From contig CAZVFY010000002.1 in NCBI GenBank assembly GCA_964626635.1, forward strand, positions 72,415 through 136,414: DNA of 64,000 bases, given 5' to 3'. The position numbers were made by a program, and so were the translations under genes. Below the pieces are notes generated by a model. The model did not search any database. It was not told the origin of the DNA and saw only the letters and a program-made list of their open reading frames with translations. Shown here in pieces: positions 18,268 through 51,726 of this stretch (within the stretch, counting starts at the first letter, position 1; each line of letters opens with the position of its first letter). The stretch comes from an uncultured Candidatus Saccharibacteria bacterium. GTDB taxonomy: Bacteria > Patescibacteriota > Minisyncoccia > Phycocordibacterales > UBA918.

Positions 18268-18271
18268 TTCT

Positions 18272-18829: not shown

Positions 18830-18837
18830 ACAATTCT

Positions 18838-19695: not shown

Positions 19696-20014
19696 CCACC
19701 ACATCGCTATCATTGGGCCGACCGATATGGTGGCAGGCTTTCGGACGCTCGGCATCGAGGCGATCAACGCGACGTCTGGCATTGAGGCGCTCGCGGCGCT
19801 ACGCAGGCTTCGTCAAAATCCTGATCGACAGTACGCCGTGGTGTGTCTGATCGAAGAACTGTTTACAAACATTGATCCAGTTGAATTCGAGAAGGCCACG
19901 ACGGGCGCACTCCCCGCAGTCGTGCTGTTGCCAGGCACCGGTGGCGCAAGCGGTGTCGCGCTCGCGCGCCTGAGGCGCTTAGCCGAACGAGCGGTTGGTT
20001 CAGCCATCATTTAA
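19685..20014 (+). CDS. V/A-type ATPase subunit F
   Basis: 109 aa. HIAIIGPTDMVAGFRTLGIEAIN. Confidence 0.75.
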   Translation: MNSNHHIAIIGPTDMVAGFRTLGIEAINATSGIEALAALRRLRQNPDRQYAVVCLIEELFTNIDPVEFEKATTGALPAVVLLPGTGGASGVALARLRRLAERAVGSAII

Positions 20015-20040
20015 TTACTTACTCATTTATTACACTTACT

Positions 20041-23334: not shown

Positions 23335-23342
23335 TACCTATC

Positions 23343-23975
23343 ATGGCAATCTTAAAAATCAGTCCAACGCGGGTCTCACTCCTCAAACTAAAAAAGGAGC
23401 TCAAGACCGCCAAGAAAGGCCATAAACTCCTCAAGGATAAACGCGACGGTCTCGTCAAGAAATTCATGAGCGTGATCTACGAAGCTAAGGCGACTCGTGA
23501 ATCAGTCGAGGAGCGCCTGGGGTCAGCATTCGCGAGTTACCAGCGCGCCAGTATGGTCGCCAGCCCCGGCGCGCTCGAGGTGGCGACTAAATTGCCTGGT
23601 GCGTCGCTCTCTCTCGGCGTCAGTGTCAAGCGTGTTATGTCAGTCCCGGTGCCGGAATTTACGGTCGACAAGACTGGGGAGGCGGCCGTGTACAGTCAGG
23701 CCGATACGCCAATCGAACTAGATACCGCCATCACAAAATTTGATGATGTGATCGTTGATATTCTGACACTCGCGGCACTCGAGAAAACCGCCGCGAACCT
23801 GGCCGAAGAGATAGAGAAGACGCGCCGCCGCGTATCCGCCCTCGAGAATATCCGCATTCCGAACCTGCAAGACACGATTAAATTCATCACCATGCAACTG
23901 GATGAGCGTAACCGGGACGCGGTGGTGTCGACGATGCGAGTGAAAGCAATGATTGTTGCCAAGGAAAACGCCTAA
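23343..23975 (+). CDS. V/A-type ATPase subunit D
   Basis: 210 aa coiled-coil central stalk protein, last gene of the operon. Confidence 0.85.
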   Translation: MAILKISPTRVSLLKLKKELKTAKKGHKLLKDKRDGLVKKFMSVIYEAKATRESVEERLGSAFASYQRASMVASPGALEVATKLPGASLSLGVSVKRVMSVPVPEFTVDKTGEAAVYSQADTPIELDTAITKFDDVIVDILTLAALEKTAANLAEEIEKTRRRVSALENIRIPNLQDTIKFITMQLDERNRDAVVSTMRVKAMIVAKENA

Positions 23976-25553: not shown

Positions 25554-27134
25554 ATGAGACAACTTGTACATATACCGTATCACGCATGGATGTATGCGAT
25601 GAAGAAAATTGATGCGACAGGTATGTATCGCATTGTATCGGTAACACTTGCTTTGCTAGTCCTTTGCAGCTTACTCGCAAGTAGTATTGGGCAACTGGCG
25701 TATACTCTGCCCGCGCTGTTTACTTCTTTGGTACTCGCAGTGCTGGTGGCACTGGGGCTTAATAAAGTGATCGGAATGCTGTTGCGAGTTCCAGTTAATC
25801 AAGAATCAGCCCTTATTACCGGTCTCATTTTGTTTTTTATGATGATACCAAGCGCCAACTTGGTCGAGAACTGGTACCTGGTTGCAGCAGTGGCGCTGGC
25901 CATTCTCTCGAAGTACTTAATTGTGTATCGTCGCCAACACATAGTAAATCCGGCGGCGGCTGGTGCTGTCGGTCTTGTACTCATCATCGGTGGAGTAAAT
26001 GTAGTACAAGGTACGAGCTACAACACAGACATTTTTTCTTGGTGGGTGGCCAACCCTATTTTGTTTTTGCCAGTCCTTTTGCTGGGTGCAGCCGTAGTTC
26101 AAAAAATTAGAAAATGGCCGGGAGTTTTGGCGCTAATAATTGTTGGTTTAGTGGTATTTGTGTATGAGTCGCTCACGTTTGGGCTTTCGGCACTGTCTGC
26201 GACACAACTTTTCTTTGTTTCGTTTCCGACGCTTTTCCTTGCGTTTTACATGTTTACTGAGCCGACCACGATGCCGCCGCGAAAATGGCATCAGGTAACC
26301 TACGGGGCTCTCGTTGGTGCACTGATGAGCACGACGCTCTTTGCGCCTTACCTTGCAATGACGCCAGAGCTGGCGTTGGTGCTAGGTAACGTATATGCGT
26401 ACAGCTTTCGAGCGAGGCGTAAGCTGTACCTCACATTAGTCGAAACACGATCACTAACGCGCAATGTATTAGAGTTTGTTTTCAAGAAGCCAACAGACTT
26501 TTATTTTCGAGCCGGACAATATCTGGAATGGATGTTACCGCACGAAAAAGCAGACGATCGCGGTGCGCGTCGCTATTTTACGATAGCGTCGAGCCCGACC
26601 GAAGACGTTGTACGACTGGCTCTAAAAGTGCCAGAAAACCCAAGCACGTACAAACAATCTTTGACTGATATGAAAGTCGGTGAACAACTAATTGCGAGCC
26701 AGCTTGCCGGAGACTTTCTATTGCCTACTACACCTCAGTACATGCTCGGGCTGATTGCTGGCGGTATTGGCATCACTCCTTTTCGAAGCCAGCTGCGGTA
26801 CTTACATGATCAGGGGCGCATAGTCGATACTGTGCTATTTTACTGTGCGCCTACGAGCGCTGACCTTGCGTACAAAGATGAGCTTAAAGAATACCAGCCT
26901 GACCTTTGTCTAGTTCCAGTGCTTGACTCAACTGAAGATAATCAAGATAAAGATGATGTAATCGAAGGGTATCTCACAACAGCATCACTCACCAAGCATG
27001 CACCAGACTATCTTGAGCGGCACTGGTATTTATCCGGCCCTCCAGGCTTGGTAAATGCTTACAAAAAGCTTTTACTGCAAGCGAAAGTGCCGCGGCGCAA
27101 TATCAAGACTGATTATTTCCCGGGACTTGCGTAG
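25554..27134 (+). CDS. Membrane oxidoreductase: RnfD/NqrB-like polytopic domain fused to an FNR-type FAD/NAD(P)-binding reductase domain
   Basis: About 8 TM helices containing HIVNPAAAGAVGLV (an FNPAL-like motif). The C-terminal domain carries RRYFTIASSP (RxYS FAD motif), GGIGITPF (NAD(P) binding) and a C-terminal YLSGPPGLV. Alternative starts at 25590 or 25599 are possible. Confidence 0.55.
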   Translation: MRQLVHIPYHAWMYAMKKIDATGMYRIVSVTLALLVLCSLLASSIGQLAYTLPALFTSLVLAVLVALGLNKVIGMLLRVPVNQESALITGLILFFMMIPSANLVENWYLVAAVALAILSKYLIVYRRQHIVNPAAAGAVGLVLIIGGVNVVQGTSYNTDIFSWWVANPILFLPVLLLGAAVVQKIRKWPGVLALIIVGLVVFVYESLTFGLSALSATQLFFVSFPTLFLAFYMFTEPTTMPPRKWHQVTYGALVGALMSTTLFAPYLAMTPELALVLGNVYAYSFRARRKLYLTLVETRSLTRNVLEFVFKKPTDFYFRAGQYLEWMLPHEKADDRGARRYFTIASSPTEDVVRLALKVPENPSTYKQSLTDMKVGEQLIASQLAGDFLLPTTPQYMLGLIAGGIGITPFRSQLRYLHDQGRIVDTVLFYCAPTSADLAYKDELKEYQPDLCLVPVLDSTEDNQDKDDVIEGYLTTASLTKHAPDYLERHWYLSGPPGLVNAYKKLLLQAKVPRRNIKTDYFPGLA

Positions 27135-32704: not shown

Positions 32705-34108
32705 ATGTTGCACGCTCTTTCTGAACCAATCGTATTCAGTGATGTCGAAACCACTGGCGGGAACGCCGTACGCAATCGCGTCACCGAAGTAGCGGCGATT
32801 CGCTATGAAGGCGGTGTAGAAGTCGGGCGCCTTAATACGTTAGTCAACCCGCAGGCACGCATCCCGTTCAATATCACCATGCTCACCGGCATCAGTAACA
32901 CGATGACAGACACGGCGCCCGAGTTTGCTGATATTGCGGATGATGTGGCTGAGCTGTTTGCGGGGGCGACACTCATCGCGCACCACGCACGGTTTGATTA
33001 CTCGTTTATTCGGGCCGAGATGAATCGGGCTGGACACCAATTTGAATGTCCGCAAATCTGTACTGCCAAATTATCACGCGCGCTCTACAGCGAATACCGG
33101 ACGCATAATCTGTCTGACATTATTGAGCGATTTGGGTTTACGTGCGAGGCTCGCCACCGAGCGATGGGAGATACCGAGGTGCTGGTGCAGCTCGCGCACC
33201 AAATTGACAATGACTTTAGTCAGTCGACTATCACGAACGCCCTCGAGCGTAGTCAATCACGCGCTACGCTACCACCCAATGTGCCCAAAGACACCATCGA
33301 CCGACTGCCGCATACGCCGGGTGTATACAGTTTTTATGGTAAAGACGGCGAGCTACTGTACGTCGGCAAGAGTATTGATATACGTGGGCGGGTACTGAGT
33401 CATTTCAGTAATGCCTCGCGTGATAGTAAATCAAGGCGGATATTTACCGAGGTCTACGACGTCCAGTACGAAGAGACCGCGGATGATTTCTCAGCGCAGC
33501 TCCTCGAGATTCATAAGATTAAACATGACATGCCAATCTATAACCGTAAACTGCGCCGCAACGAACGATTGTGGGCACTAACGGCCAAGAATGACAATGG
33601 TGGCAATGCCATCGCTGATGATTCGGCGCCAGTCGCGTTTACCTTGACCCCGCTCGACGCCGAATTACAACAACAGCCCGAGCGGGTGTACGCCGTGTAC
33701 CGCACCAAACGTGCCGCCAAAACTGCGCTCGATGGCCTGGTCAAAACCCATGGCCTTTGTCCTAAATTACTCGGCGCCGAGTCTGGTAAAGGGGCGTGTT
33801 TTTCATCACAGTTAGGGGTGTGTCAGGGTGCGTGTACTGGACGTCTGTCAGCCAAAGAGTACAACCAGCAAGTTGCAAAAGTGTTCGAGAAGCAACGCTT
33901 GCGCCATTGGCCGTACGCTGGCCCCCGAGAGATCATTAAACGCACGCCAGATATGCAGCGATCAGAACGGTTCGTGGTCGATAACTGGGTATTGCAGTCG
34001 GCGACAATTCTCGAGGAACAGGCAGAGCGCGCGTTCTTTCCTACCGGCGAACTGCAGTTTGACTATGATGTATACAAAGTCTTGGTCAAAGAACTATTGC
34101 GCGCATAG
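32705..34108 (+). CDS. DnaQ-family 3'-5' exonuclease fused to a GIY-YIG (UvrC-like) endonuclease domain
   Basis: N-terminal DEDDh exonuclease (IVFSDVETTG...HHARFDYSF...HRAMGD). Central GIY-YIG (PGVYSFYGKDGELLYVGKSIDIRGRVLSHF). A perfect TATAAT lies 12 nt upstream of the ATG. Confidence 0.75.
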   Translation: MLHALSEPIVFSDVETTGGNAVRNRVTEVAAIRYEGGVEVGRLNTLVNPQARIPFNITMLTGISNTMTDTAPEFADIADDVAELFAGATLIAHHARFDYSFIRAEMNRAGHQFECPQICTAKLSRALYSEYRTHNLSDIIERFGFTCEARHRAMGDTEVLVQLAHQIDNDFSQSTITNALERSQSRATLPPNVPKDTIDRLPHTPGVYSFYGKDGELLYVGKSIDIRGRVLSHFSNASRDSKSRRIFTEVYDVQYEETADDFSAQLLEIHKIKHDMPIYNRKLRRNERLWALTAKNDNGGNAIADDSAPVAFTLTPLDAELQQQPERVYAVYRTKRAAKTALDGLVKTHGLCPKLLGAESGKGACFSSQLGVCQGACTGRLSAKEYNQQVAKVFEKQRLRHWPYAGPREIIKRTPDMQRSERFVVDNWVLQSATILEEQAERAFFPTGELQFDYDVYKVLVKELLRA

Positions 34109-36415: not shown

Positions 36416-38317
36416 CTATACAATTCGGCAAGGATTCACTTCAATTTTTACGTACGGCGGAAGTAATTGCAGCGTACGAACAATGTCCGCATGCGACTGA
36501 TCGGGTGTGATCCGTAGCAATCCGTGGCGCAGCACGTGCGCGCGGGTACTGGTGGGGTTGGTGTACCACTCGAATTCAGTTGCCAGCGTTCCAAGTATTT
36601 GCTTGATATTCGCCTCGGCTGGTTTGACCACGTCACTAGCGCCTCGCCAACTGAGCAGCACCAGTGTCACGAATGGCGGATACTGCATAGCACTCCGCAG
36701 CGCTAGCTCCTCATCATAAAATTTCTCTACCGCGCCGCGCCTGGCAATGTTGATAATCGCATCGTGATCCTCGTCATAATCAGCCCGGGTTTGCAAGAGG
36801 ACATCGCCGCTGGTGCACTCACGCAGGGTCAGTAATAACTGCAACAGTTCTTGGTCAGCTTCCCAGGTGGGGACGCTGCGAGCGCTCTCAAGCGAGCTGA
36901 CCACAGATAGATCGGAGGACGCCATATGAGGTAGCGACAGCTTGGTGCCGATTAGTACGGACCCGGGCGTGTCGTGGTACTGCCGGATGGCTTGTTTGAG
37001 AGCGGTAACAGTTTTGGTTGACTCGGCGTCAACGACGATTGGCGTGCTATCAGGGAACCATGCTGACCACGCATCAACGATCTGCTGGATCCCAACCCCG
37101 CGTTCGCTCAGTCGCCACGACCGACATTGTGGACACGTGTCTGGCGCCGTCGACCGCGCACCTGACACCGAATCAACGACTAGCCGCACAGTTTCGCCAG
37201 CTCGATTCGTCGTCTCTAATAGTGAGTAAACGCCGCCGGTGGTGGCGTTTTGTAATACATGTCCACAGTCCCGACACATGATGAGCGGCGCTAACCCGCG
37301 ACGCGGACAGTACACGTACACGCGGCCGCGATTGTCTATCGTCTGTTGGATCTGCTCTCTCACAGCCGCGTGAATCAGTTCGTATGGTTGGGTCGGAGTT
37401 GGCGCCGGATGCGGCTGCAGTACCAAGCTACCAGGCAAATTCAACCGCCTGACACTGCTGCCGCGGGTGTCGTAGTGTTCGCTACGCCGGTGGTGTTCTA
37501 TGGTGACCGGCAGCAGCGTGTCCGCCAGTAATAATGGGACATCAAGCGCCTGAGAGTACGCCTCGAGAGCCGTGCGATGATCAATGTATGGGCGGCGATT
37601 GCTGACGTAGCTGCGATGACTGACATCATCTACTATCACCTGGCCGTACGCCAAGACTGACTCGTAAGCGTGGGCCGGAGTGGTCACAACGACAATCGGC
37701 TTGCCGGCTTGCTGCAGCGCGAGGCGTTTGGTGTGGGTGCGCTTGTTCGTATCTCGCAGCAGGAGCGTGCGCTCGGGCAGACTGTCGAGAAATGGCTGGG
37801 AGAGACGCTCTGCCAAGACTTTGCTAGGCGCGACGAGTAACAGTGAGCGACCGTGAGCCAACGTTTCGCGAGCCAGCAGTTGGTATTCGGCGATGCGTTC
37901 GGCCCGACTGAGCGCGAGGGTGCTAACGCTGTGCGTGATGGGGCTAGCGTCCATCTGGGGTGGGGCGGTTGCGAGCGTGTGGTCGCCCGAGCGCACGTCA
38001 CTTGGTAACAATTGGTACAAGAGTGCGCCGAGCGACGCTGGGTACCTCGCCGAGAGTGTCTCGGCAGTCTTGATCAGTTCCGCTGGTACCTGGGCTGCCG
38101 CAGACTGGCTAGGTAGTTTGCGTAACGTGAAGCTGGCCGTCCGTAATGCCGCCTTGTCCGTAGTCACGGGATCGCAGGCCACTACTAGACCGGTGCGAGT
38201 TTGTTTACGAATGGGAATCGTGATCAGTGATCCGATGGGGTGCTCGACCTTAGAATAATAAGTGAGTTCCTCGATATTCTGACCGCGCACCAAGGGCGTA
38301 ACTCGAACCGTGAACAT
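36416..38317 (-). CDS. priA: Primosomal protein N' (PriA-like), with a degenerate Walker A
   Basis: N-terminal 3'-DNA-binding domain (MFTVRVTPLVRGQNIEELTYY). DExH-like VIVDDVSH. Cys-rich zinc-binding region (CPRRG...CRDCGH...CPQC). No GxxxxGK[ST] was found. Confidence 0.6.
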   Translation of the reverse strand: MFTVRVTPLVRGQNIEELTYYSKVEHPIGSLITIPIRKQTRTGLVVACDPVTTDKAALRTASFTLRKLPSQSAAAQVPAELIKTAETLSARYPASLGALLYQLLPSDVRSGDHTLATAPPQMDASPITHSVSTLALSRAERIAEYQLLARETLAHGRSLLLVAPSKVLAERLSQPFLDSLPERTLLLRDTNKRTHTKRLALQQAGKPIVVVTTPAHAYESVLAYGQVIVDDVSHRSYVSNRRPYIDHRTALEAYSQALDVPLLLADTLLPVTIEHHRRSEHYDTRGSSVRRLNLPGSLVLQPHPAPTPTQPYELIHAAVREQIQQTIDNRGRVYVYCPRRGLAPLIMCRDCGHVLQNATTGGVYSLLETTNRAGETVRLVVDSVSGARSTAPDTCPQCRSWRLSERGVGIQQIVDAWSAWFPDSTPIVVDAESTKTVTALKQAIRQYHDTPGSVLIGTKLSLPHMASSDLSVVSSLESARSVPTWEADQELLQLLLTLRECTSGDVLLQTRADYDEDHDAIINIARRGAVEKFYDEELALRSAMQYPPFVTLVLLSWRGASDVVKPAEANIKQILGTLATEFEWYTNPTSTRAHVLRHGLLRITPDQSHADIVRTLQLLPPYVKIEVNPCRIV

Positions 38318-39731: not shown

Positions 39732-39800
39732 GCATGGCAGTATACCAATTTAATTTCGATTCGTTTACCGCACGCGCCTGACTTGCTACACTATCGACAC

Positions 39801-40817
39801 ATGAAGTTTCCGACATTTTCGCCCAAGGTTGGCATCGACCTTGGCACTACTAATATTCTGGTGTTTATCCCGGGGCAAGGAGTGGTACTGAACGAGCCGT
39901 CGGTCGTCGCCGTATCTAGTGACGGCCGGGTGGTGGCGGTGGGGTCCGAAGCCAAATTGATGATCGGTCGCACGCCTGACGATATCCGCGCCTACCGGCC
40001 GATGCGCGACGGCGTGATTGCTGACTACCGGGTGACCGAGGCGATGTTGCGCTATTTTCTCAAGAAATCTCTCAGTCAGTATAGTTTGTTCCGGCCGGAA
40101 GTGATGGTGTCGGTTCCGGCGGGTGTCACCAGCACTCAACGCCGCGCGGTGGTCGAGGCGGCCATGCGCGCCGGAGCCAAGACTGCTTTTGTCGTCAAAG
40201 AACCAATTCTGGCTGCCATCGGCGCTGGCGTTCCAATCTATGAACCGCAGGGGCACATGATCGTCGATATTGGCGGCGGGACGATTGACGTAGCGGTGAT
40301 CGCGCTCGGCGGAATTGTGGCGGCGAATTCGGTCAAGGTTGCTGGCAATCACATTGACGCAGCCATCGTTGACTACGTCAAGAAGCACAAAAATCTCGCC
40401 ATCGGTGACAAAACTGCAGAGGAGATTAAGATTCAGATCGGTTCCGCATTGCCGCTAACCGACGAACTAAAAATGGAAATGAAGGGTCGTGACATCGTCA
40501 CCGGCTTGCCGCGCACGGTCGAAATGCGTAGTAATGAGATCGTCAAAGCGATCAGTAAGGAACTAAAGGAAATGATCGCTGCGATCCGGGATGTCTTCCA
40601 GGAAACGCCGCCGGAACTGGCCGCCGATATCATCGACTCGGGCATTATTATGACGGGCGGGACGTCGCAGTTGCGGAATTTTCCCGAACTCATTAAACGC
40701 CGGTTGGGCGTAAAAGCCCAGGTGTCAGACCAAGCATTGTTGTGTGTGGTCAAAGGGACTGGTGTCGCGCTTGAACACTTAGGTGTCTACAAACGCGCGG
40801 TATTGGCGAAGAAATAA
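39801..40817 (+). CDS. mreB: Rod shape-determining protein MreB (paralog 1)
   Basis: Start moved to MKFPTFSPKVGIDLGTTN. Actin-fold phosphate loops DLGTTN and DIGGGT. Confidence 0.85.
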   Translation: MKFPTFSPKVGIDLGTTNILVFIPGQGVVLNEPSVVAVSSDGRVVAVGSEAKLMIGRTPDDIRAYRPMRDGVIADYRVTEAMLRYFLKKSLSQYSLFRPEVMVSVPAGVTSTQRRAVVEAAMRAGAKTAFVVKEPILAAIGAGVPIYEPQGHMIVDIGGGTIDVAVIALGGIVAANSVKVAGNHIDAAIVDYVKKHKNLAIGDKTAEEIKIQIGSALPLTDELKMEMKGRDIVTGLPRTVEMRSNEIVKAISKELKEMIAAIRDVFQETPPELAADIIDSGIIMTGGTSQLRNFPELIKRRLGVKAQVSDQALLCVVKGTGVALEHLGVYKRAVLAKK

Positions 40818-40878: not shown

Positions 40879-43686
40879 ATGGAACAGCCGCCACAGCGAT
40901 TTGCCAATCCAACCGACGAAGTGGTATTTCTGCGTGAGCAGTTAGCGGCGCGCGAGCGAGAACTGTTCGAACGCCAGCCAGCGGCCGAGACACCCGAGTC
41001 ACAAACCGCCCAAAAAGAAGCGCTACGCGCCTACCACCAGTTCACTCCACAGTCAGTGCTAGACCCGAGCTATGAACTGTCAGGCCATGCACTTCGCGCA
41101 GCTGAGGCCGGGCTAGAAGTCGCGCATGATCCAGTTGCAGAAGTGCTAGAAATCGCTAAGACTCACGGCATCAAAAACGCGCTTGGGGTGCTCGAGCGAC
41201 AATCAGATATCTCGGCGCACACGATTGATGAGGTGCATCGACAACTGATCGAGCACATCCGGGGTGGGGTGGCGTTAGTAGATCTTCGCGAAGGCGTCCC
41301 GCCCTGGCACGTCATGCACATGACGCTCTATTCGATTGCGCTCCCAGAACAAACTGGCACCACTGACGCCGGTGGTCACGCCGAGCTAGTCGGCCGGATG
41401 CAGCAGCTACTCCAAGGCTTGCGCGTCATTGGCAGCAAGCAATCCCTCAATCACATCGCCTTCGAGGTGGCGGTCGCTAATGATACTCAAGACATCGTGT
41501 TCTACGTCGCGGTGCCAGACGAGTACCGCGAATTATTTGAAAAGCAAACGTTGTCGCTGTTTCCACACGCGGTGTTGGCGCTCGAGCCACATGATTACAA
41601 TGTGTTCGGGGGCGACGGGGCGGTGGCTGGTGCGACCGTGTCGCTCAAAAAGCACATGCTTTATCCGCTCGCAACGGCAGCAGACTTGGCGACCGATCCG
41701 CTCGAGGTGCTCCTGAATGCTTGTTCGGATGTCACCATGGGTGAGGGAGTGGCCGTGCAGTTCCTAGTGCGCTACCCAACGGCTACCTACCGACGAGACA
41801 TTGAACAAATTAAAAAACAGATTGAAAAGGGTGCCAAAGTCGGCGAAGCGATCAGTCGCAGCACCCTCGGTGGCGCGGTACTGGCCGAAGTGGGTTCATT
41901 ATTCACATCAAAGAAACCAAGCACTGACACCGAACCAAAAGACATCGACACCGCGACAATCGAGCAAATCAACACCAAACTACAGTCAGACATCATTGAA
42001 GTACAAATCCGCGTGGTTGCTTCGGCGCACAACATCGGTCGTAGTGAGGACATCTTGACCGAGCTACTGGCGTCCCTGGCGCAGTTCGAGAACGTAGCCG
42101 GGAACACACTGGTAACCAAACGTGTGCCGCATAAATCCCTGCGTCAATTCGAGAAAGCCTTCTCGTTTCGGCAGTTCGATAAGTCCGCGGCCATGCCGCT
42201 TAATCTCACTGAACTGGCCAGTCTGGTGCACTTTCCCGGCAACGGAGTGGCGGCCGCGCACCAATTCCGCCAGTCATCAGCGCAAACTGCCCCCGCACCA
42301 ACCGAGCTACCGACCAAGGGGACATTGTTGGGCCGTAACGTACACCGCGCCGTCGAGCGGGACGTGCGCATCACAGACGAAGATCGTTTGCGGCATTTCT
42401 ATATCATTGGACAGACTGGTACCGGTAAGACGACCCTCATGAAGAATATGATTGTCCAAGACATCCAGCGGGGTGACGGGGCGTGCCTGATCGACCCGCA
42501 CGGCACAGACATCGAAGATGTCCTCGGTGCCGTGCCACCGGAGCGGGCTGATGATGTCATTTACTTTGATCCGTCGCGGATGGATAGGGTGCTCGGCCTC
42601 AATATGCTGGAATTTGATGAGACTAAGCCGGAGCAAAAAACCTTTGTGGTCAACGAATTGTTCTCCATCTTTCAAAAATTATACGGTGCCAATCCAGAGT
42701 CGATGGGGCCGATGTTCGAGCAGTATTTCCGTAATGCCACCATGTTGGTAATGGAAGACCCGGCGTCCGGCAATACCCTGATGGACATTGGTCGCGTCAT
42801 GGCCGACGCGCAGTATCGCCGCTATAAACTCAGTAAGGCTACCAATCCAGTCGTGGTGCAGTTCTGGCGTGAGATCGCCGGGAAGGCCGGCGGGGAAGCG
42901 TCGCTCGAGAATATCGTGCCGTACATCGTGTCCAAATTTGATGTCTTTACGGCGAACGATTACATGCGTCCGATCATCGGGCAGCAGCAATCAGCGTTTA
43001 ATTTCCGGCAGATTATGGATGAGCGCAAGATTTTACTGGTCAATCTGTCAAAAGGTCGGCTGGGCGAGATCAACGCGAACTTGATCGGGATGATTTTGGT
43101 GGGCAAGATCTTGATGGCTGCTTTGTCGAGGGTCGACGATTCGAGTAAGGGCTACCCGCCGTTTTATTTACACATGGATGAGTTCCAAAATATCTCGACC
43201 AATTCTATCTCGGCCATTTTGTCCGAAGCTCGCAAATACAAATTAGGACTGACCATGGCGCACCAGTTCATCGCGCAGCTGCAGCCTGACATCAAAGACG
43301 CCGTATTTGGGAACGTTGGGTCAATGGCGGCGTTCCGGGTCGGGCCGGAGGATTCGCAGTTCCTCGAATCACAATTCAACCCACCATTCACCGCCAGCGA
43401 CCTGATGAACGTCCCAAACCGCAATGCGTTCTTGCGCGTCCTCGCGAATGGAACACCGACCAAACCATTCAGCATCAGCACCATGCGCCCAGTCGAGCCA
43501 GACCTAACTCGGACTGCCGAGCTGATCGAGCGCAGCCTGGATCGCTACGGCCAGCCGCGTAGCGTGATCGAGGCGGATATCAGTGCGCGCTACCAAAAGC
43601 CAAAATTGAACGGTGCACCAACTCCAGCGCCAGGCCTGCCAGGCAACAATCCCCCTCAGCCGACTGCTCCTACAGTCCGCGTATAG
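40879..43686 (+). CDS. Large P-loop NTPase of the HerA/FtsK-TraD/VirD4 (DUF87 / type-IV coupling-protein-like) superfamily, no TM anchor
   Basis: Walker A IIGQTGTGKTT, a downstream LIDPHG, Walker B FYLHMDEFQNI, and ARKYKLGLTMAHQFIAQL (a HerA/VirD4-like C-motif). The roughly 500-aa N-terminal region is unassigned. A start at 40783 would overlap mreB, so 40879 is preferred. Confidence 0.6.
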   Translation: MEQPPQRFANPTDEVVFLREQLAARERELFERQPAAETPESQTAQKEALRAYHQFTPQSVLDPSYELSGHALRAAEAGLEVAHDPVAEVLEIAKTHGIKNALGVLERQSDISAHTIDEVHRQLIEHIRGGVALVDLREGVPPWHVMHMTLYSIALPEQTGTTDAGGHAELVGRMQQLLQGLRVIGSKQSLNHIAFEVAVANDTQDIVFYVAVPDEYRELFEKQTLSLFPHAVLALEPHDYNVFGGDGAVAGATVSLKKHMLYPLATAADLATDPLEVLLNACSDVTMGEGVAVQFLVRYPTATYRRDIEQIKKQIEKGAKVGEAISRSTLGGAVLAEVGSLFTSKKPSTDTEPKDIDTATIEQINTKLQSDIIEVQIRVVASAHNIGRSEDILTELLASLAQFENVAGNTLVTKRVPHKSLRQFEKAFSFRQFDKSAAMPLNLTELASLVHFPGNGVAAAHQFRQSSAQTAPAPTELPTKGTLLGRNVHRAVERDVRITDEDRLRHFYIIGQTGTGKTTLMKNMIVQDIQRGDGACLIDPHGTDIEDVLGAVPPERADDVIYFDPSRMDRVLGLNMLEFDETKPEQKTFVVNELFSIFQKLYGANPESMGPMFEQYFRNATMLVMEDPASGNTLMDIGRVMADAQYRRYKLSKATNPVVVQFWREIAGKAGGEASLENIVPYIVSKFDVFTANDYMRPIIGQQQSAFNFRQIMDERKILLVNLSKGRLGEINANLIGMILVGKILMAALSRVDDSSKGYPPFYLHMDEFQNISTNSISAILSEARKYKLGLTMAHQFIAQLQPDIKDAVFGNVGSMAAFRVGPEDSQFLESQFNPPFTASDLMNVPNRNAFLRVLANGTPTKPFSISTMRPVEPDLTRTAELIERSLDRYGQPRSVIEADISARYQKPKLNGAPTPAPGLPGNNPPQPTAPTVRV

Positions 43687-43698
43687 TATATTTAGCGT

Positions 43699-45273
43699 AT
43701 GTCATTTGAAGGTGCTCCACCAATAGCCGAAACCGGGCTGCCAATCAGGCCAGCCAGTGCTAGGCAGAGTTTGGCACAGGAATACGGTGATATGCTTGCT
43801 AATGCCAACAATAGCAATCAATCAGAGCTCGCCGAGGTAGAGCTCGATGCAACTGCTGACGACGAAGATCAAGATTCTGATCCAGATCTGAGCGGATACG
43901 TACGCCCGCAATTGGACGCGCCAACCGAGGAGCCTAGCCCCGACACTACTGCCACGGACGCCGAGCTAGCTCATCAGTACACTGAATTAGGATACGAGGC
44001 GAACGTCTTGCCAGATGACCTTACTGCGGATACCGCTGTAGAAGTATCCGAGTCAATAGACTCATCTGAAAAATTGGGAGAAGAGGTCAAGTTGGACGAA
44101 AAGGGGTTAGATTACACCCAAGCTGCACTCGATGACTATCTCGCCAATGCAGTCACTGCTACTGAACAAAATATTTCCGCGTGGCAACAGGATCCAGAAA
44201 CTGCCTCAGCATATCTGCAGCAATCAGAAGAATTTGCGAACGCTGTACGCGCCGCTGACACCCTTACAGAACTGAAAGAAAGACTATCTGATGGCGGCAG
44301 CATTACTGACAAGGATGCCAAGCTGGTGCAATCACTGACTGACGCGATCGCAAAAGCTGAAATTACTATTCCGATGAGTACCCTTTCCGCAGAAACAGGA
44401 CCGTCAGATAGCACTCAAACCCAGCTACATATAGAACAAGTTGAAAGAACACAGTCCGACGAGGAGATGCTAGAACCAGAACCAGAAGACTCGCCACTAG
44501 TCGGGCGTCCACGTGGATCTCTTGCGCCTGTAGGGTTAGATCCTAAAGAGGGAGATCAAATTGGCATTACGGCCAATGGCCGTCAGATACAACGGACTAA
44601 TGAGTTAACAAATAACTGGCCTGCTGAGGCTGATGCAGATCGGTTGCAGCTGCAACGTCGACTGTATGGTCCAGAGGTAGCAAATGATATGGAGGCTTTA
44701 CGCAAAATGGCTGACGCGCGGCGAAATTCCACCGAAGTAAGAAGCTCTGTTTTTACGCCGAAATCTTTACGCGCAACAGCAGAAAGAGAAGAAGTACATC
44801 ATCATACAGAATTCGACCCAACCACTGCCGCTCCCGAGGCACTACAAGCCAACGATGCTGAATGGCCACAGGTCGCAGTTGATCAAATTATCCTTGATGT
44901 CGAATCAGTTGCCAGTCAGTCGCGCGGCGCCTGGTCGAAATTTGTCCACCGTTTAACAAAGGGTAACGGATTTGTTTATGGGTGTGGCAATCGACCATTC
45001 AATCAATTTGTCGCGTTGTGTGATCCTGCTAAAAATTCTATGACGCAGATAAAAGAAACTGTCCTCAAACCAGTTGATGTTGATTACAACACGTTTAACG
45101 CTTGGCGTGATCGGCTTGACGACATGATTGATATTCAGGATGAGTATGATATGCCCATATTGAACAAGGGGGGTACGCCCCCGGTGAGATCATTCAGCGA
45201 AGTGGCTGAGCTATATGCCAGACGTATGCTAACGCTGGAGCGCGGCTCTGCAATGGGTCATTATTTACAATGA
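43699..45273 (+). CDS. Acidic, largely disordered protein with a conserved-looking C-terminal globular region, hypothetical
   Basis: 524 aa, rich in D/E/A/T/Q. C-terminal segment ..GNGFVYGCGNRPFNQFVALCDP... No signal peptide or TM. Confidence 0.5.
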   Translation: MSFEGAPPIAETGLPIRPASARQSLAQEYGDMLANANNSNQSELAEVELDATADDEDQDSDPDLSGYVRPQLDAPTEEPSPDTTATDAELAHQYTELGYEANVLPDDLTADTAVEVSESIDSSEKLGEEVKLDEKGLDYTQAALDDYLANAVTATEQNISAWQQDPETASAYLQQSEEFANAVRAADTLTELKERLSDGGSITDKDAKLVQSLTDAIAKAEITIPMSTLSAETGPSDSTQTQLHIEQVERTQSDEEMLEPEPEDSPLVGRPRGSLAPVGLDPKEGDQIGITANGRQIQRTNELTNNWPAEADADRLQLQRRLYGPEVANDMEALRKMADARRNSTEVRSSVFTPKSLRATAEREEVHHHTEFDPTTAAPEALQANDAEWPQVAVDQIILDVESVASQSRGAWSKFVHRLTKGNGFVYGCGNRPFNQFVALCDPAKNSMTQIKETVLKPVDVDYNTFNAWRDRLDDMIDIQDEYDMPILNKGGTPPVRSFSEVAELYARRMLTLERGSAMGHYLQ

Positions 45274-45333
45274 TAGGTAATTCACACGAAGACATGTTGA
45301 TAACGAGTCCGAGTGCTACACTACTAGTAAGTT

Positions 45334-47031
45334 ATGGCACGTTCTTTTTCTTTTGACACCCCAGAGGAGGTAATGCATGTGTTGGCATCACTGCGTGCGA
45401 GCCAGCTTTCAATGGCTGATCAGGGTCGCATGCGCGATCTGATACTTTCTTACACGAATGGCGGGAAAGATCCTTCGCTTAAGAATCAGATTCAAAGAGA
45501 ATTACAGGCGCTACACGTGGCACCAAGTGAAGTGGAGACCAGATTAGAAGTTGGTCAAGTGCATTCGTTCGGATCATCCCGATCGACGCCGACCTTTCGT
45601 CCGCCAGTACCGGAAACTCCGCCCACCGCTGAGCCAGTTTCCCCTCACCCGGTTACTGAGCCAATACCAGTTCAAGTTAAACCGTTAGCAGCGCCCGCAT
45701 CAGCACCACTAAACACACTGCAAACACCTCCCCAGCCAGCAACTGCACACCCGTCAGCACAAACCAACACACCCGGATCGGACCTAGACACCGAACCAGC
45801 TACATCAGCGGATGCAGTTACAGCGACTAATTCGACGGTTCCTGCAAATGATAGCGGTGAGACTCCGTTAGTTCACACGCCAGCTGCACCGACCGCAACT
45901 TTAGATCGTATTCGCGCTATTAAATCTGAGATTAATCAGCTAGTTGGTAACCCAGTGCATCTGGTTGAAACAAATAACGAGATTGGTCGTGAATACATGG
46001 CTGCCATGCTGAATGCAATGAAATCCATTAGTGCTGGCGGCACTGAAGAGGCAATGGAACGGCTGGAAACGGCGTTTGCAGCTGCCAAATCTACTATTGC
46101 CAAACAACCTGCAGAGACCCCGCAAGCCCCCCAAGCAGATGTTTTGCAGCCAACACCAACGCCACCAGAAGTCATTCAAAACCAGGCCGCCCCGCACCCT
46201 TCGTCCGTCGCCAACCCACCCCAGCCAGCACAAACAAATCAAACTCCATCAGTCCCTCGGGCTGAAACGCCGGCACAAGCAGTACCAATTGTAACTACAG
46301 CGCCAGTACCAACTGCTGCGAGACAGGTACAGCCGCGCCCTGAACCAGAAGTCGTGCCCGCCAGCAGTTCTGATGTTACCTCTGTTTCGGCCGCTCCGGG
46401 ACGACCAGACAGCTCGGCGCCAATAGTGCTGGATCAGACGGATACGGGTGATAGCGCGTCACGCTGGAAGGATGTGCCAATGCAATTCCAAACAAATACT
46501 ACTACGACACCACCTCAACCACCGACTTCAGAACCTGCTCGTTCTACGCCAGCAGTTCCAGCCAGCTCTAATTTAGGCGCTCAGCCACCAGTCCCACCAC
46601 CACCCGCATCGGCCACACCACCGAGTAAACTAAAACCGTTAGCTGAAGCTGGTGAACCTCTCCATACACCAACCGAGCTACCAACCGCTACAGAGATGGC
46701 GCAAAAGCACCCTGGTGACCCGCTTTATACCCAGGCGGTGACCGATGGTTTACAACAGTTGCTCCTTGATTGGCAATTGTTTAATAAAAGCGGATTATTT
46801 GGCACTGGGCCGAAAGGTCTAGAGCACCCACTTTTCCTTAAAACTAAAGACATGCTGATTCCTATCTTATTAGCTGGGCGCTTTGATGGTGCGAGTCAAG
46901 AGATCAAGCAAAGTGTCACCGATTACATGAATGGGTGGCGCTACGAGCAGGGAATTGTCTACGAACAAGGCGAGACGTTCGAACATTACTTACGCCGCGT
47001 GATCAAGCACATTCTTGATCTTCACGCTTAA
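45334..47031 (+). CDS. Pro/Thr/Ala/Gln-rich low-complexity protein with a C-terminal globular region, hypothetical
   Basis: 565 aa. Central PxP/TPP-rich region of about 400 aa. C-terminal ..LFGTGPKGLEHPLFLKTKDMLIPILLAGRFDG... No signal peptide. Confidence 0.5.
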   Translation: MARSFSFDTPEEVMHVLASLRASQLSMADQGRMRDLILSYTNGGKDPSLKNQIQRELQALHVAPSEVETRLEVGQVHSFGSSRSTPTFRPPVPETPPTAEPVSPHPVTEPIPVQVKPLAAPASAPLNTLQTPPQPATAHPSAQTNTPGSDLDTEPATSADAVTATNSTVPANDSGETPLVHTPAAPTATLDRIRAIKSEINQLVGNPVHLVETNNEIGREYMAAMLNAMKSISAGGTEEAMERLETAFAAAKSTIAKQPAETPQAPQADVLQPTPTPPEVIQNQAAPHPSSVANPPQPAQTNQTPSVPRAETPAQAVPIVTTAPVPTAARQVQPRPEPEVVPASSSDVTSVSAAPGRPDSSAPIVLDQTDTGDSASRWKDVPMQFQTNTTTTPPQPPTSEPARSTPAVPASSNLGAQPPVPPPPASATPPSKLKPLAEAGEPLHTPTELPTATEMAQKHPGDPLYTQAVTDGLQQLLLDWQLFNKSGLFGTGPKGLEHPLFLKTKDMLIPILLAGRFDGASQEIKQSVTDYMNGWRYEQGIVYEQGETFEHYLRRVIKHILDLHA

Positions 47032-47049: not shown

Positions 47050-47631
47050 ATGATCACACAGGTTGTTCGCTCGACTGAGCCGTACCAGTACACCACTGAG
47101 TCAGCAGCTGATCAGTCAGTGATCTACGTTGACGCCGATTTGTTTGGTATCAACGATGCCAGGGCGTTGGTACATGAGGCAAATACCACTAGTTTGGAGG
47201 CCGCCACCAAACTGATCGTCGTCCGCGCACTGGGTATCACATTAGAAGCGCAGCAAGCACTATTGAAAATAATTGAAGAGCCACCAACCGGGAGCAGCTT
47301 GCGTTTTGTGGTGCCGCCAACGGTTGAATTGTTACCGACGATTACATCGCGCGTGCACTCCGAAACCTTTAACACGGACACCTTAATTAACGGCACCTGG
47401 GAACAGTTCCTGCACGCAACGTACGCCGAGCGGCAAAAGCAGATTGATGCCTACCAAAAAACCAAAAATGCCGAGTGGCTCTACGCCATTCGAACTGGTC
47501 TGCTGTCATACCTCGAGAGTGGCGTGTCGGTGTCGCCGCTACTGTACTTGGCCGCCAAAAAACTACAGACACGCGGCGCCGTTAACAAATGGTTACTTGA
47601 GGCACTGCTGCTCGAATTGCCGGTTGAATGA
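47050..47631 (+). CDS. holB: DNA polymerase III delta' (HolB)-like clamp-loader subunit, N-terminally truncated
   Basis: Clamp-loader hallmarks ALLKIIEEPP and LPTITSRV. Only 193 aa and lacks the P-loop region. Confidence 0.5.
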   Translation: MITQVVRSTEPYQYTTESAADQSVIYVDADLFGINDARALVHEANTTSLEAATKLIVVRALGITLEAQQALLKIIEEPPTGSSLRFVVPPTVELLPTITSRVHSETFNTDTLINGTWEQFLHATYAERQKQIDAYQKTKNAEWLYAIRTGLLSYLESGVSVSPLLYLAAKKLQTRGAVNKWLLEALLLELPVE

Positions 47632-50652: not shown

Positions 50653-51726
50653 ATGAAGCGTCGCTGGCCTATTCTAGACTCTGTATTTGGTACGCTTTCG
50701 ACTGATATCGCTGTCGACCTAGGGACTGCCAACACGTTGGTATATGTCAAAGGCAAAGGTATTATTCTAAACGAGCCAACGATTGTGGCACTCAATAAAA
50801 AAACCGGTCAAATTGTCGCCGTCGGCACCGAGGCCAAATCAATGCAAGGTCGAACGCCACAACACATTGAGGTAGTCCGACCACTGGTCGACGGCGTTAT
50901 TTCCGATTTTGAGGTCGCCGAGGAATTATTCACGTACCTCATCAACAAGGTCCGCAGTGACGTCCGGATGATCGTCCCGCCGCGCATGTTGGTCGGTGTC
51001 CCGTCTGGTATTACCAATGTCGAGATGCGGGCCGCCGAGGACGCGGCTCGCAACGCTGGTGCCCGCGAAGTGTTTTTGGTCGAAGAACCAGTGGCCGCGG
51101 CCATCGGCGCCAAACTGCCAGTTGGTAAAGCCATGGGCAGCATGATCGTCGACATTGGTGGGGGAACTAGCGATATCGCAGTGCTGTCACTCAATGGATT
51201 AGTCCACTCTAAAAACATCCGGGTGGCTGGAGATCACTTGACCGCTGCCATCGTGACGTATATCCGAGACCAATTCAAGGTCCAAATTGGCGAGAAAACA
51301 GCCGAAGACGCCAAGATCGCGCTGGCGGCTATTTCCGAATCGAAAGACGGCCGCGAGATGGTCGCCCGTGGCCGGGACGTGGTTGGTGGACTGCCGCGTG
51401 AAATAATAATCACTGATACCGACGTGCGAGACGCTGTAGCGCCGCTCGTCGAGAAGATCGTCTCGAATGTTCGCAGTGTGCTGGAATCAACACCACCAGA
51501 GGTAGTGGCAGATATTATGCAGCGCGGTATTTATCTCTCTGGTGGGGGAGCGTTGATTCCTGGTCTCAGTGACCTCCTTGAACACGCGCTTGAGGTGCCA
51601 GTGATTGTCGTGCCTGACCCACTACGGGCAGTCATCCGAGGAGCAGGTATAATTATCGAAGATTTGCCCAACTACCAAGAACTGCTGATTGATCATGAAA
51701 CCACACTTACAACGCAGCTCAACTAA
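50653..51726 (+). CDS. mreB: Rod shape-determining protein MreB (paralog 2)
   Basis: DIAVDLGTANTLVYVKGKGIILNEPT..VDIGGGTSD. Heads an mreC-mreD-like-PBP2 cluster. Confidence 0.85.
   Translation: MKRRWPILDSVFGTLSTDIAVDLGTANTLVYVKGKGIILNEPTIVALNKKTGQIVAVGTEAKSMQGRTPQHIEVVRPLVDGVISDFEVAEELFTYLINKVRSDVRMIVPPRMLVGVPSGITNVEMRAAEDAARNAGAREVFLVEEPVAAAIGAKLPVGKAMGSMIVDIGGGTSDIAVLSLNGLVHSKNIRVAGDHLTAAIVTYIRDQFKVQIGEKTAEDAKIALAAISESKDGREMVARGRDVVGGLPREIIITDTDVRDAVAPLVEKIVSNVRSVLESTPPEVVADIMQRGIYLSGGGALIPGLSDLLEHALEVPVIVVPDPLRAVIRGAGIIIEDLPNYQELLIDHETTLTTQLN

What the first reader, a model, noticed from the sequence alone, without database searches (positions are those of the whole stretch)
40879..47031. 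Orphan VirD4/HerA-like P-loop ATPase without membrane anchor, followed by two long disordered proteins
A roughly 935-aa protein has a C-terminal ATPase module of the TraD/VirD4-HerA (DUF87) type: Walker A IIGQTGTGKTT, LIDPHG, Walker B HMDEFQ, and ARKYKLGLTMAHQ. It has no N-terminal TM helices, so it is not a classical coupling protein. Its 500-aa N-terminal region is uncharacterised. Two genes follow with 12- and 60-nt gaps. One encodes a 524-aa strongly acidic protein and the other a 565-aa Pro/Thr-rich protein. Both share the same architecture: short N-terminal segment, roughly 350-400 aa of low complexity, and a roughly 100-aa globular C-terminus. Neither has a signal peptide or sortase motif. 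No other T4SS, pilus or conjugation genes are nearby. The trio sits inside a housekeeping run (mreB ... frr, rseP), which suggests a conserved, lineage-specific ATP-driven system such as a translocase for disordered substrates or a nucleic-acid motor with adaptor proteins. This is inference only.
Basis: partly seen in the sequence, partly recalled or inferred. Interest (0 to 1): 0.65.

Follow-up and report, generated by a model that had tools for sequence, protein, structure and literature searches.

The report
Orphan coupling-type ATPase in Paceibacteria
A membrane-anchor-less relative of conjugation "coupling" ATPases has become a highly conserved chromosomal core gene in one class of ultrasmall bacteria (Paceibacteria); one of the two neighbouring proteins looks like its real partner and the other does not, and its function is unknown.

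Summary
Three co-directional genes lie at 40879-43686, 43699-45273 and 45334-47031, and all quoted motifs, gaps and compositions are present.

The ATPase belongs to the FtsK-HerA superfamily. Its P-loop domain is closest to T4SS coupling proteins (VirD4/TrwB/TraD). Its overall fold is closest to VirB4: an N-terminal DUF8128 alpha/beta domain plus a C-terminal ATPase, with no TM helix. It is a core gene of Paceibacteria, 46-69% identical across relatives, with matches in at least 538 stretches of species-representative genomes. Its nearest relatives outside this group are plasmid and phage proteins beside relaxases or nickases.

The "trio" is not one unit.
- B has three conserved helical modules joined by variable linkers. 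holB follows it directly in 64 of 64 loci. One relative keeps B although the ATPase is absent.
- A is a divergent member of a hypervariable acidic family with a conserved C-terminal motif. This family accompanies the ATPase in two unrelated genomic contexts.
- A and B are not paralogs.

My best reading is an exapted coupling-type motor with A as its cognate substrate or adaptor. A nucleic-acid motor is the main rival. The published literature has noted orphan T4CP homologs in Patescibacteria but has not characterised them. I rate it a new variant of a known kind, of moderate interest.

The parts
40879..43686 (+). Orphan T4CP/VirB4-like ATPase, 935 aa, no TM helix. The layout is an N-terminal helical region (aa 1-145), a DUF8128 alpha/beta domain (aa ~146-450), a P-loop ATPase domain (aa ~480-905) with a helical insert (aa ~585-714), and a Pro-rich tail.
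   Evidence: (PF26449 and PF01935 in homologs).
42409..42432 (+). Walker A motif GQTGTGKT (aa 511-518).
   Evidence: Read directly from the sequence. G511 to K517 are invariant in 30 homologs.
43168..43182 (+). Walker B motif LHMDE (aa 764-768).
   Evidence: L764, H765, D767 and E768 are invariant.
43699..45273 (+). Protein A: 524 aa, acidic (pI 4.3), with no TM helix and no signal-peptide-like hydrophobic N-terminus. It is a divergent member of the hypervariable 'A-slot' family that accompanies the ATPase.
45043..45144 (+). Conserved C-terminal motif of the A family (aa 449-482...VDVDYNTFNAWRDRLDDM...). A second family motif, RSFSEVAELYARR, follows, as seen by eye against the alignment.
   Evidence: The profile of 30 A-slot proteins scores window A at 16.0 bits (E 4.9e-7 for one sequence). 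The best of 1000 shuffles scored 7.2 bits.
45334..47031 (+). Protein B: 565 aa, a conserved 'beads-on-a-string' protein with no Pfam family. holB follows it directly wherever that could be checked.
45361..45510 (+). B module 1 (aa 10-59), three predicted helices, pLDDT above 90.
45889..46104 (+). B module 2 (aa 186-257), helical, carrying the conserved motif RIR.IK...VGNPV.LV..NN..GREYM..L..AMK.
46711..47028 (+). B module 3 (aa 460-565), helical, about 70% identical across relatives (GLFGTGPKG.EHPLF ... TDYMNGWRYEQG ... GETFEHYLRRVI).
47050..47631 (+). Short holB (DNA polymerase III delta'-like, 193 aa). This is a context gene, and it follows B directly in every relative with enough downstream sequence to check.
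   Evidence: 64 of 64 loci.
39798..40817 (+). mreB paralog upstream of the ATPase. This is a context gene belonging to the syntenic backbone.
   Evidence: In L153 it directly precedes B with no ATPase between them.

Best explanation
What is shown.
- Gene 40879-43686 encodes a catalytically intact, soluble ATPase of the FtsK-HerA superfamily. Its nucleotide-binding domain belongs to the type IV coupling protein lineage (VirD4/TrwB/TraD). Its overall two-domain build (N-terminal DUF8128 alpha/beta domain plus C-terminal ATPase, no membrane anchor) resembles VirB4.
- It is a core gene of the class Paceibacteria, found in housekeeping operons rather than mobile elements. It is related to coupling ATPases of plasmids and phages of monoderm bacteria and archaea, which work beside a relaxase or nickase.

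What is inferred.
- Here the relaxase and the membrane anchor are gone, and the gene has been exapted.
- Like its relatives, it probably forms a ring that uses ATP to hand a macromolecular substrate to a membrane channel. That channel is most plausibly the chromosomal Patescibacteria T4SS encoded elsewhere.
- Protein A is probably its cognate substrate or adaptor, recognised through the one part of A that is conserved, the C-terminal domain. The rest of A is acidic and evolves too fast to align. In relatives, long versions carry a hydrophobic segment and are followed by a small acidic chaperone-like protein.
- Protein B is a separate conserved scaffold-like protein (three helical modules on flexible linkers). 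Its firmest genomic tie is to holB. Its link to the ATPase rests on synteny alone.

For: Core-gene status. Homologs are 60-69% identical over the full length. At least 538 matching stretches occur in species-representative genomes, and all 80 best are Patescibacteria. The ATPase is about as conserved as murA, and more conserved than frr, rseP or holB in the same loci. GC content is unremarkable. The window has no relaxase or T4SS genes.

Mobile-element ancestry.
- phrog_5156 matches at E 1.3e-71 over aa 191-902.
- An Embleya plasmid homolog (E 1e-49) sits in the order PrgI, VirB4-like, homolog, replication-relaxation protein, NlpC/P60.
- A B. subtilis plasmid homolog precedes a relaxase and Tcp genes.
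- SPO1 gp27.4 precedes a nickase.

A as partner.
- A-slot proteins form one family (30 of about 40 linked).
- They lie directly after the ATPase both in the mreB...holB context and in the unrelated recJ...comEC context.
- Window A matches the family's C-terminal profile (16.0 bits against at most 7.2 in 1000 shuffles).
- A proteins are always acidic and range from 213 to 1489 aa.
- Long forms carry a hydrophobic segment and are followed by a conserved ~98-aa acidic protein.

Literature. T4CP homologs occur in 2,918 of 3,035 Patescibacteria genomes and only 148 lie near virB4. Relaxases occur in only 103 genomes. The authors write that exaptation 'cannot be ruled out' (PMC12102498).
Against: - No physical or functional data exist; the mechanism is inference.
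- The ATPase occurs without any adjacent A gene in 8 loci of the mreB...holB context and in 9 loci of the map...ndk context. A is therefore not obligatorily linked to it.
- Window A lacks the family's N-terminal region, the hydrophobic segment and the small partner gene.
- T4CP homologs are reported in more Patescibacteria genomes (2,918) than VirB4 (2,407 assemblies). The T4CP homolog of S. epibionticum was not essential although the T4SS was. Both facts argue against an obligate T4SS role.
- The near-invariant helical insert of the ATPase suggests a very conserved ligand, such as nucleic acid or a core protein, rather than a fast-evolving one.
- The ATPase model is of modest quality (mean pLDDT 60; the ATPase insert is below 50).
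Confidence: 0.4

Rival explanations
1. The ATPase is a nucleic-acid motor that works independently of the T4SS. It would be a ring translocase acting on DNA or RNA, for uptake of host or environmental nucleic acid or for chromosome handling. A would serve as an accessory or tether, and B would be unrelated.
For: - Characterised relatives in the superfamily are mostly DNA pumps, and they appear among the structural matches (TrwB, HerA, FtsK, TcpA).
- The mobile-element relatives are paired with nickases or relaxases, so their substrates are DNA.
- Three loci have the order recJ, ATPase, A, C, x, comEC.
- Nine loci have the ATPase followed by ndk and an RNase J-like gene.
- In the window the gene lies near holB and a priA-position gene.
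- The helical insert is nearly invariant.
- A 2026 preprint shows a Patescibacteria isolate taking up host RNA by an unresolved mechanism (10.64898/2026.06.21.733656).
Against: - The contexts are generic housekeeping operons. secY-adk-map is simply the end of the ribosomal protein operon.
- The DNA-related neighbours differ between lineages.
- No DNA-binding domain was detected in the ATPase or in A.
- ComEC was dispensable for growth in S. epibionticum according to the review PMC12857230.
Confidence: 0.27
2. The ATPase, A and B form one lineage-specific three-component ATP-driven system, with both disordered proteins acting as substrates or adaptors.
For: - The order ATPase, (A), B is conserved. 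Of 64 genome loci with room downstream, 47 have B downstream of the ATPase.
- Of 23 loci found through B, 22 have the ATPase upstream.
- The genes are tightly spaced and co-directional, and no terminator-like site was found in the gaps between them; sites in the region as a whole are no more frequent than chance.
Against: - The whole 20-kb region is collinear across this clade, so adjacency alone says little.
- Where synteny breaks, B stays with holB and not with the ATPase. L153 has mreB, B, holB with no ATPase.
- The B profile finds nothing within 10 kb of the ATPase in 23 divergent loci.
- A and B are not homologous.
Confidence: 0.15
3. The ATPase is an ordinary conjugative coupling protein of an integrated mobile element, or a HerA-type defence ATPase.
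For: - Pfam T4CP hits are above their cut-offs.
- Relatives occur on plasmids and phages.
- There are weak PADLOC hits (mad8 at 1e-10, HerA at 1e-5).
Against: - No relaxase, integrase, VirB4 or other T4SS gene was found among the 20 larger window ORFs scanned.
- The housekeeping synteny is the same in dozens of species.
- Identity of 60-69% across species is not typical of mobile-element cargo.
- The region shows no GC anomaly.
- The protein has no TM anchor.
- NCBIfam scores are far below the curated cut-offs (48 bits against 366).
Confidence: 0.03

Closest known systems
Type IV coupling proteins (VirD4 / TrwB / TraD / TraG / DotL)
   Same: - The P-loop nucleotide-binding domain gives the best sequence matches: TIGR03743 SXT_TraD at 6.6e-13, and Pfam TrwB_AAD_bind and T4SS-DNA_transf above their gathering scores.
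- A profile of the family hits TrwB in the PDB.
- A helical insert lies between Walker A and Walker B, where the all-alpha domain sits in these proteins.
- The nearest relatives outside Patescibacteria occupy the T4CP position beside relaxases.
   Different: - It has no N-terminal TM anchor.
- It carries an extra ~480-aa N-terminal region (DUF8128).
- It has no relaxase or T4SS neighbours.
- It is a chromosomal core gene in housekeeping operons.
- Sequence similarity to solved T4CPs is confined to about 40 residues around Walker A.
- It scores far below the NCBIfam equivalog cut-offs.
VirB4 / TrwK (T4SS ATPase)
   Same: - It is soluble and of similar size, with an N-terminal domain plus a C-terminal ATPase.
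   Different: - There is no VirB4 sequence signature (TIGR00929 scores 18 bits against a cut-off of 643).
- It has no VirB3, VirB6 or VirB8 neighbours.
- In the Embleya plasmid a separate VirB4-like gene sits next to the homolog, so the family occupies the T4CP slot and not the VirB4 slot.
- The model confidence is modest.
Uncharacterised DUF87/DUF8128 ATPases of plasmids and phages (phrog_5156; SPO1 gp27.4; Bacillus phage G gp156; Bacillus, Clostridium, Streptomyces and haloarchaeal plasmids)
   Same: - Homology runs from aa ~190 to ~900, covering both the N-terminal alpha/beta domain and the ATPase. Scores are phrog_5156 at 1.3e-71, and family-profile E values of 1e-34 to 3e-63.
- Most of these proteins also lack TM helices.
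   Different: - Identity is only 21-29%.
- They are carried on mobile elements and usually lie next to a nickase or relaxase.
- They lack the Patescibacteria-specific first ~145-190 residues.
- None of these proteins is annotated with a demonstrated function in the records examined.
HerA / FtsK / EccC pumping ATPases
   Different: - No NurA partner was seen.
- There is no FtsK-like membrane anchor (no TM helix) and only a weak, below-cut-off Pfam FtsK_SpoIIIE match.
- There are no tandem ATPase domains.
- These matches are weaker than those to VirB4 and the T4CPs.

Membership tests
Type IV coupling protein (VirD4/TrwB/TraD/TraG) | FtsK-HerA-type P-loop domain with intact Walker A and Walker B motifs | tested here: met
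   GQTGTGKT and LHMDE are present and invariant in 30 homologs.
Type IV coupling protein (VirD4/TrwB/TraD/TraG) | Family HMM score above the curated cut-off | tested here: inconclusive
   Pfam TrwB_AAD_bind scores 28.5 bits against a cut-off of 20.5, but over only 43 residues. T4SS-DNA_transf scores 21.2 against 20.1. All NCBIfam TraD and VirD4 models score far below their cut-offs, for example 48 against 366.
Type IV coupling protein (VirD4/TrwB/TraD/TraG) | N-terminal transmembrane anchor | tested here: not met
   No 19-residue hydrophobic window lies in the first 700 residues. The maximum KD of 1.84 is at residue 731, inside the ATPase fold.
Type IV coupling protein (VirD4/TrwB/TraD/TraG) | All-alpha domain inserted in the nucleotide-binding domain | tested here: inconclusive
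   Helices are predicted at aa 585-714, between Walker A and Walker B, but pLDDT is below 50 there.
Type IV coupling protein (VirD4/TrwB/TraD/TraG) | Genetic linkage to a relaxase and/or T4SS channel genes | tested here: not met
   No such domain was found in 20 large window ORFs. Relatives have housekeeping neighbours within 10 kb. The rest of the genome could not be examined.
VirB4 | Two-domain soluble architecture (N-terminal domain plus C-terminal ATPase) | tested here: met
   [not shown]
VirB4 | VirB4 sequence signature and VirB3/VirB6/VirB8 neighbours | tested here: not met
   TIGR00929 scores 18 bits against a cut-off of 643, and there are no such neighbours.
Pfam DUF8128 (PF26449) + DUF87 proteins | A PF26449 match in the N-terminal half | tested here: met
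   The match is precomputed for the 100%-identical entry P0001 and for nearly all homologs. This model is not in the local Pfam copy, so it did not appear.
PHROG 5156 | A full-length profile match | tested here: met
   E 1.3e-71, with aa 191-902 matching profile positions 77-805 of 824.
HerA-type defence or repair ATPase | A partner nuclease or effector (NurA, Sir2, DUF4297) and a family HMM match | tested here: not met
   Only Walker-A-level PADLOC HerA hits were found (1e-5), and there is no such neighbour.

The most novel reading that the evidence does not exclude
The orphan coupling-type ATPase is the cytoplasmic motor that pulls host-derived nucleic acid (RNA or DNA) into Paceibacteria cells. 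This would be a conjugation ATPase run 'in reverse' as a feeding device. The hypervariable acidic A proteins would act as host-facing or channel-associated adaptors. The evidence does not exclude this reading, and three observations hint at it: the ATPase's ancestry among DNA-handling coupling proteins, its position next to ndk and an RNase J-like gene in nine loci and between recJ and comEC in three, and its near-universal presence in a group that cannot make nucleotides.
Probability: 0.12. Interest if true: 0.9.

Novelty: new variant of a known kind. Interest (0 to 1): 0.55.

Why it matters
Patescibacteria make up a large share of bacterial diversity. They live on other cells and cannot make nucleotides, lipids or most amino acids. 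How they move macromolecules to and from their hosts is an open question. Their T4SS is essential in the one tractable species, and a 2026 preprint reports uptake of host RNA by an unknown route.

This ATPase is about as conserved as MurA. It descends from conjugation coupling proteins but has lost its relaxase and membrane anchor. It is paired with a fast-evolving acidic protein family. That makes it a concrete, testable candidate component of such traffic.

The work here separates what belongs to the system from what is only syntenic. The ATPase, the A family and a small acidic protein seen in relatives travel together. B is only syntenic with the ATPase, and is itself a new conserved family tied to holB. 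This gives experimenters defined constructs and interaction hypotheses.

Tried and rejected
- A and B as paralogs. BLASTP gives E 1.9 and their architectures differ. Rejected.
- Direct PDB sequence match for the ATPase. phmmer found none. A family profile found only about 40 residues around Walker A in TrwB.
- Fold of B. The Foldseek PDB search had no hit better than E 2.9, so B's modules could not be assigned.
- Homologs of B's C-terminal domain in other architectures. The search returned only fragments of the same family. The long B homologs P0207 and P0217 are B with longer linkers, not fusions.
- Pairwise search for relatives of window A among 5,604 locus ORFs. It found none. Only the family profile detects window A.
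- The small ~98-aa 'C' protein. It is not present in the window.
- Defence-system reading. PADLOC gave only weak hits.
- Tandem DNA repeats in the low-complexity coding regions. None were found.
- Promoters and terminators between the genes. Nothing exceeded chance.
- The afdb50 fold library was unavailable.
- pLS20's own coupling protein as a characterised relative. It has two TM helices and is a different protein.
- Whether Paceibacteria lack FtsK. The literature search was uninformative.
- Co-occurrence of the ATPase with VirB4 in the same genomes.

Full report

Yes. Three co-directional ORFs lie at 40879..43686 (935 aa), 43699..45273 (524 aa) and 45334..47031 (565 aa), with gaps of 12 and 60 nt. 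A longer GTG-initiated reading of the first gene is possible. However, homolog N-termini align from the ATG (E2 and F8 are invariant), and an identical 935-aa database entry exists.

The quoted motifs are all present. The Walker A residues G511-K517, Walker B D767/E768, and R785-K786-Y787...H795-Q796 are invariant in 30 homologs, so the enzyme is very probably active. No TM helix exists. The only hydrophobic 19-mer (KD 1.84) is at residue 731, inside the P-loop fold.

A is acidic (pI 4.30) and B is rich in Pro, Ala and Thr. Neither matches Pfam or NCBIfam.

The window is a Patescibacteria chromosome segment of housekeeping genes: hisS, a V/A-type ATPase, fmt, def, murA, mreB, the trio, holB, frr, rseP, proS, mreB-mreC-PBP2, mraW, ftsI and a mur ligase. 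No T4SS, pilus or relaxase domain was found in 20 large ORFs. There is no GC anomaly.

**2. What is the ATPase?**

By sequence, it is closest to coupling proteins:
- NCBIfam SXT_TraD at 6.6e-13;
- Pfam TrwB_AAD_bind at 9.4e-7, T4SS-DNA_transf at 1.5e-4 and DUF87 at 7.7e-7.

It scores far below all curated equivalog cut-offs. Its similarity to solved structures is limited to about 40 residues around Walker A.

The N-terminal half is Pfam DUF8128 (PF26449) in the precomputed annotation of its homologs.

An AlphaFold2 model has a mean pLDDT of 60. The alpha/beta N-domain (aa ~146-450) reaches 75-90, while the helical insert (aa 574-706) is poor. The best structural matches are:

So the ATPase domain is T4CP-like in sequence, and the overall build is VirB4-like: a soluble N-terminal domain plus a C-terminal ATPase.

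**3. How widespread is it, and where does it come from?**

Full-length homologs at 60-69% identity are abundant, and every one that carries a source name is from Patescibacteria (Paceibacteria, Nomurabacteria, Kaiserbacteria). A scan of species-representative genomes found at least 538 matching stretches. The 80 best (46-68% identity) are all Patescibacteria. In the same loci the ATPase is about as conserved as MurA (65-73%) and more conserved than Frr, RseP or HolB.

The N-terminal region alone finds 727 50%-identity clusters among 1.84 billion proteins. These fall into two tiers. One tier matches the full aa 1-474. The other matches only the core aa ~146/190-460, in proteins of about 800 aa and longer (up to 1,773 aa).

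Outside Patescibacteria, relatives at 21-29% identity over aa ~190-900 lie on mobile elements:
- PHROG 5156 matches at E 1.3e-71.
- Bacillus phage proteins include phage G gp156 and SPO1 gp27.4.
- 350 plasmid records match, from Bacillus, Streptomyces, Clostridium, haloarchaea and Sulfolobus.

Their contexts are informative:
- Embleya plasmid: PrgI(VirB3), VirB4-like ATPase, homolog, replication-relaxation protein, NlpC/P60.
- B. subtilis plasmid: homolog, replication-relaxation protein, Tcp-type transfer genes.
- Phage SPO1: gp27.4, then a 'replication initiation by nicking' gene.

Most of these relatives also lack TM helices. The family is therefore a coupling-type ATPase of monoderm and archaeal mobile elements that works beside a nickase. 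The Paceibacteria copy is a chromosomal derivative with no nickase nearby.

The literature agrees in outline. T4CP homologs were found in 2,918 of 3,035 Patescibacteria genomes (5,713 copies), and only 148 lie near virB4. VirB4 of the Patescibacteria clade was found in 2,407 assemblies. Relaxases were found in only 103 genomes. The authors state that exaptation 'cannot be ruled out' (PMC12102498). 'DUF8128' appears in no paper in the library.

**4. Are the two downstream genes part of the same system?**

*B.* B is a well-conserved family with no Pfam model. It has three conserved modules that AlphaFold2 predicts confidently as helical (aa 10-59, 186-257, 460-565; pLDDT above 90). They are joined by disordered linkers whose length and composition vary between homologs, Pro-rich here and Lys/Glu-rich elsewhere. 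The C-terminal module is about 70% identical across relatives. No solved structure resembles B.

Synteny tests gave these results:
- Starting from the ATPase, 47 of 64 loci with room have B downstream, and B always directly precedes holB.
- Starting from B in metagenomes, holB follows directly in 64 of 64 loci, and the ATPase lies upstream in 22 of 23.
- The exception, L153, has the same backbone (murA, mreB, B, holB, frr, rseP, proS, mreB, mreC, PBP2) with no ATPase and no A.
- In more divergent Paceibacteria (ATPase 46-53% identical) the ATPase lies elsewhere. In nine loci it sits between map and ndk, after secY-adk, with an RNase J-like gene downstream. In three loci it sits between recJ and comEC. 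A B profile finds nothing within 10 kb in these loci.

B therefore belongs to the backbone with holB. Its link to the ATPase is only the collinearity of this clade.

*A.* The slot between the ATPase and B is hypervariable:
- It is empty in 8 loci (gap of 45-162 nt).
- Otherwise it holds one acidic protein of 213-1489 aa (pI 4.1-5.8 in all but one).
- When that protein is 825 aa or longer, a conserved ~98-aa acidic protein ('C') usually follows.

Many long forms carry a Gly/Ala-rich hydrophobic segment. Despite this variability, the proteins form one family. Thirty of about 40 are linked by pairwise phmmer through an N-terminal ~130-aa region and a C-terminal ~120-250-aa region. This includes the proteins that follow the ATPase in the unrelated recJ...comEC context, which are again followed by C.

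Window A has no pairwise relatives. It does match the family's C-terminal profile at the equivalent position, aa 449-482 (VDVDYNTFNAWRDRLDDM). The score is 16.0 bits, E 4.9e-7, against at most 7.2 bits in 1000 shuffles. A second family motif (SFSEVAELYARR) is visible by eye. Window A is thus a divergent, short member of the family, without a TM segment and without a C gene.

A and B are not paralogs.

**5. Most likely mechanism.**

Shown:
- The ATPase is an intact coupling-type or VirB4-like ATPase.
- It is a core gene with mobile-element relatives that pair with nickases.
- The A family recurs next to it in two independent contexts.

Inferred:
- The ATPase forms a ring and uses ATP to deliver a macromolecule to a membrane channel.
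- A is recognised through its conserved C-terminal domain, as T4CP substrates and adaptors are, while the rest of A diverges rapidly.
- In relatives, the small acidic C protein would act as a chaperone or adaptor. The hydrophobic segment of long A proteins could tether the complex to the membrane.
- The channel would most plausibly be the chromosomal Patescibacteria T4SS.

I give this reading about 0.4.

The main rival, at about 0.27, is a T4SS-independent nucleic-acid motor. It is favoured by three points: the DNA-handling ancestry, the recJ/comEC and ndk/RNase J neighbourhoods, and the near-invariant helical insert. It would be especially interesting given the unresolved route of host-RNA uptake in a cultivated Patescibacteria (10.64898/2026.06.21.733656).

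An ordinary mobile-element T4CP or a defence ATPase is essentially excluded by context.

**6. Novelty and verdict.**

The ATPase is not a new class. It has a DUF Pfam family, and a 2025 paper noted orphan T4CP homologs in Patescibacteria. I found no description in the library searched of the following:
- the VirB4-like two-domain build without an anchor;
- the link to phage and plasmid proteins that pair with nickases;
- the core-gene status in several housekeeping contexts;
- the A (and C) partner family;
- the B family tied to holB.

I rate it a new variant of a known kind, interest 0.55.

**Limits.** The structural model is of modest confidence. Co-occurrence with T4SS genes in the same genomes could not be tested. 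All functional statements are inference.

Noticed in passing
window 47050-47631 (+): holB is only 193 aa. It matches the DNA_pol3_delta2 profile from position 64 onward, so the N-terminal P-loop part of delta' seems to be missing. In relatives it is 192-210 aa and always lies directly after B (64 of 64 loci). B might therefore be replisome-associated.
   Followed up: partly
window 39798-40817 (+) and 50653-51726 (+): There are two mreB paralogs. One lies just upstream of the ATPase. The other heads an mreB-mreC-PBP2 cluster. Both are conserved in relatives.
   Followed up: partly
window 36416-38317 (-): A conserved 633-aa protein, also 630-633 aa in relatives, has no Pfam hit. It carries paired CxxC motifs and sits where priA would be expected, between def and murA.
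   Followed up: no
L003:17061-17360, L055:15085-15390 and about 25 other loci: A conserved ~98-aa acidic protein family ('C', with the motif EE.GT..FQSALM.YL ... YP.F..L) follows long A-family proteins in two different genomic contexts. It is absent from the window. It has no Pfam, PADLOC or PHROG match.
   Followed up: partly
L055, L061, L064 (ATPase at about 10.0-12.7 kb in L055): In one Paceibacteria lineage the ATPase lies in the order recJ, ATPase, A, C, 141-aa protein, ComEC. This places it next to DNA-uptake and DNA-processing genes.
   Followed up: partly
L060, L062, L066, L068, L069, L070, L072, L080, L082: In another lineage the ATPase is inserted after secY-adk-map and before ndk, with an RNase J-like beta-CASP gene 1-4 kb downstream. 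L072 has an additional 862-aa protein with no Pfam hit directly upstream of the ATPase.
   Followed up: partly
L088 (phage SPO1, gp27.4 at 5524-8244) and phage G gp156: Large Bacillus phages encode TM-less full-length relatives of this ATPase (PHROG 5156, function unknown). In SPO1 the gene lies directly before a 'replication initiation by nicking' gene and after a partition protein.
   Followed up: partly
window 15796-23975 (+): A V/A-type ATPase gene set is present in this Patescibacteria genome, with I, A and B subunits identified by Pfam.
   Followed up: no
window 9652-14280 (+): There is a glycogen or starch-type cluster: a GT4/GT5 synthase-like gene, GH57 and GH15. Class I fructose-bisphosphate aldolase lies upstream at 8071-9189.
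   Followed up: no
window 32705-34108 (+) and 25554-27134 (+): Two apparent domain fusions were seen: an RNase_T-type exonuclease with a GIY-YIG nuclease domain, and an RnfD/NQR2-like membrane domain with an NAD_binding_1 oxidoreductase domain.
   Followed up: no
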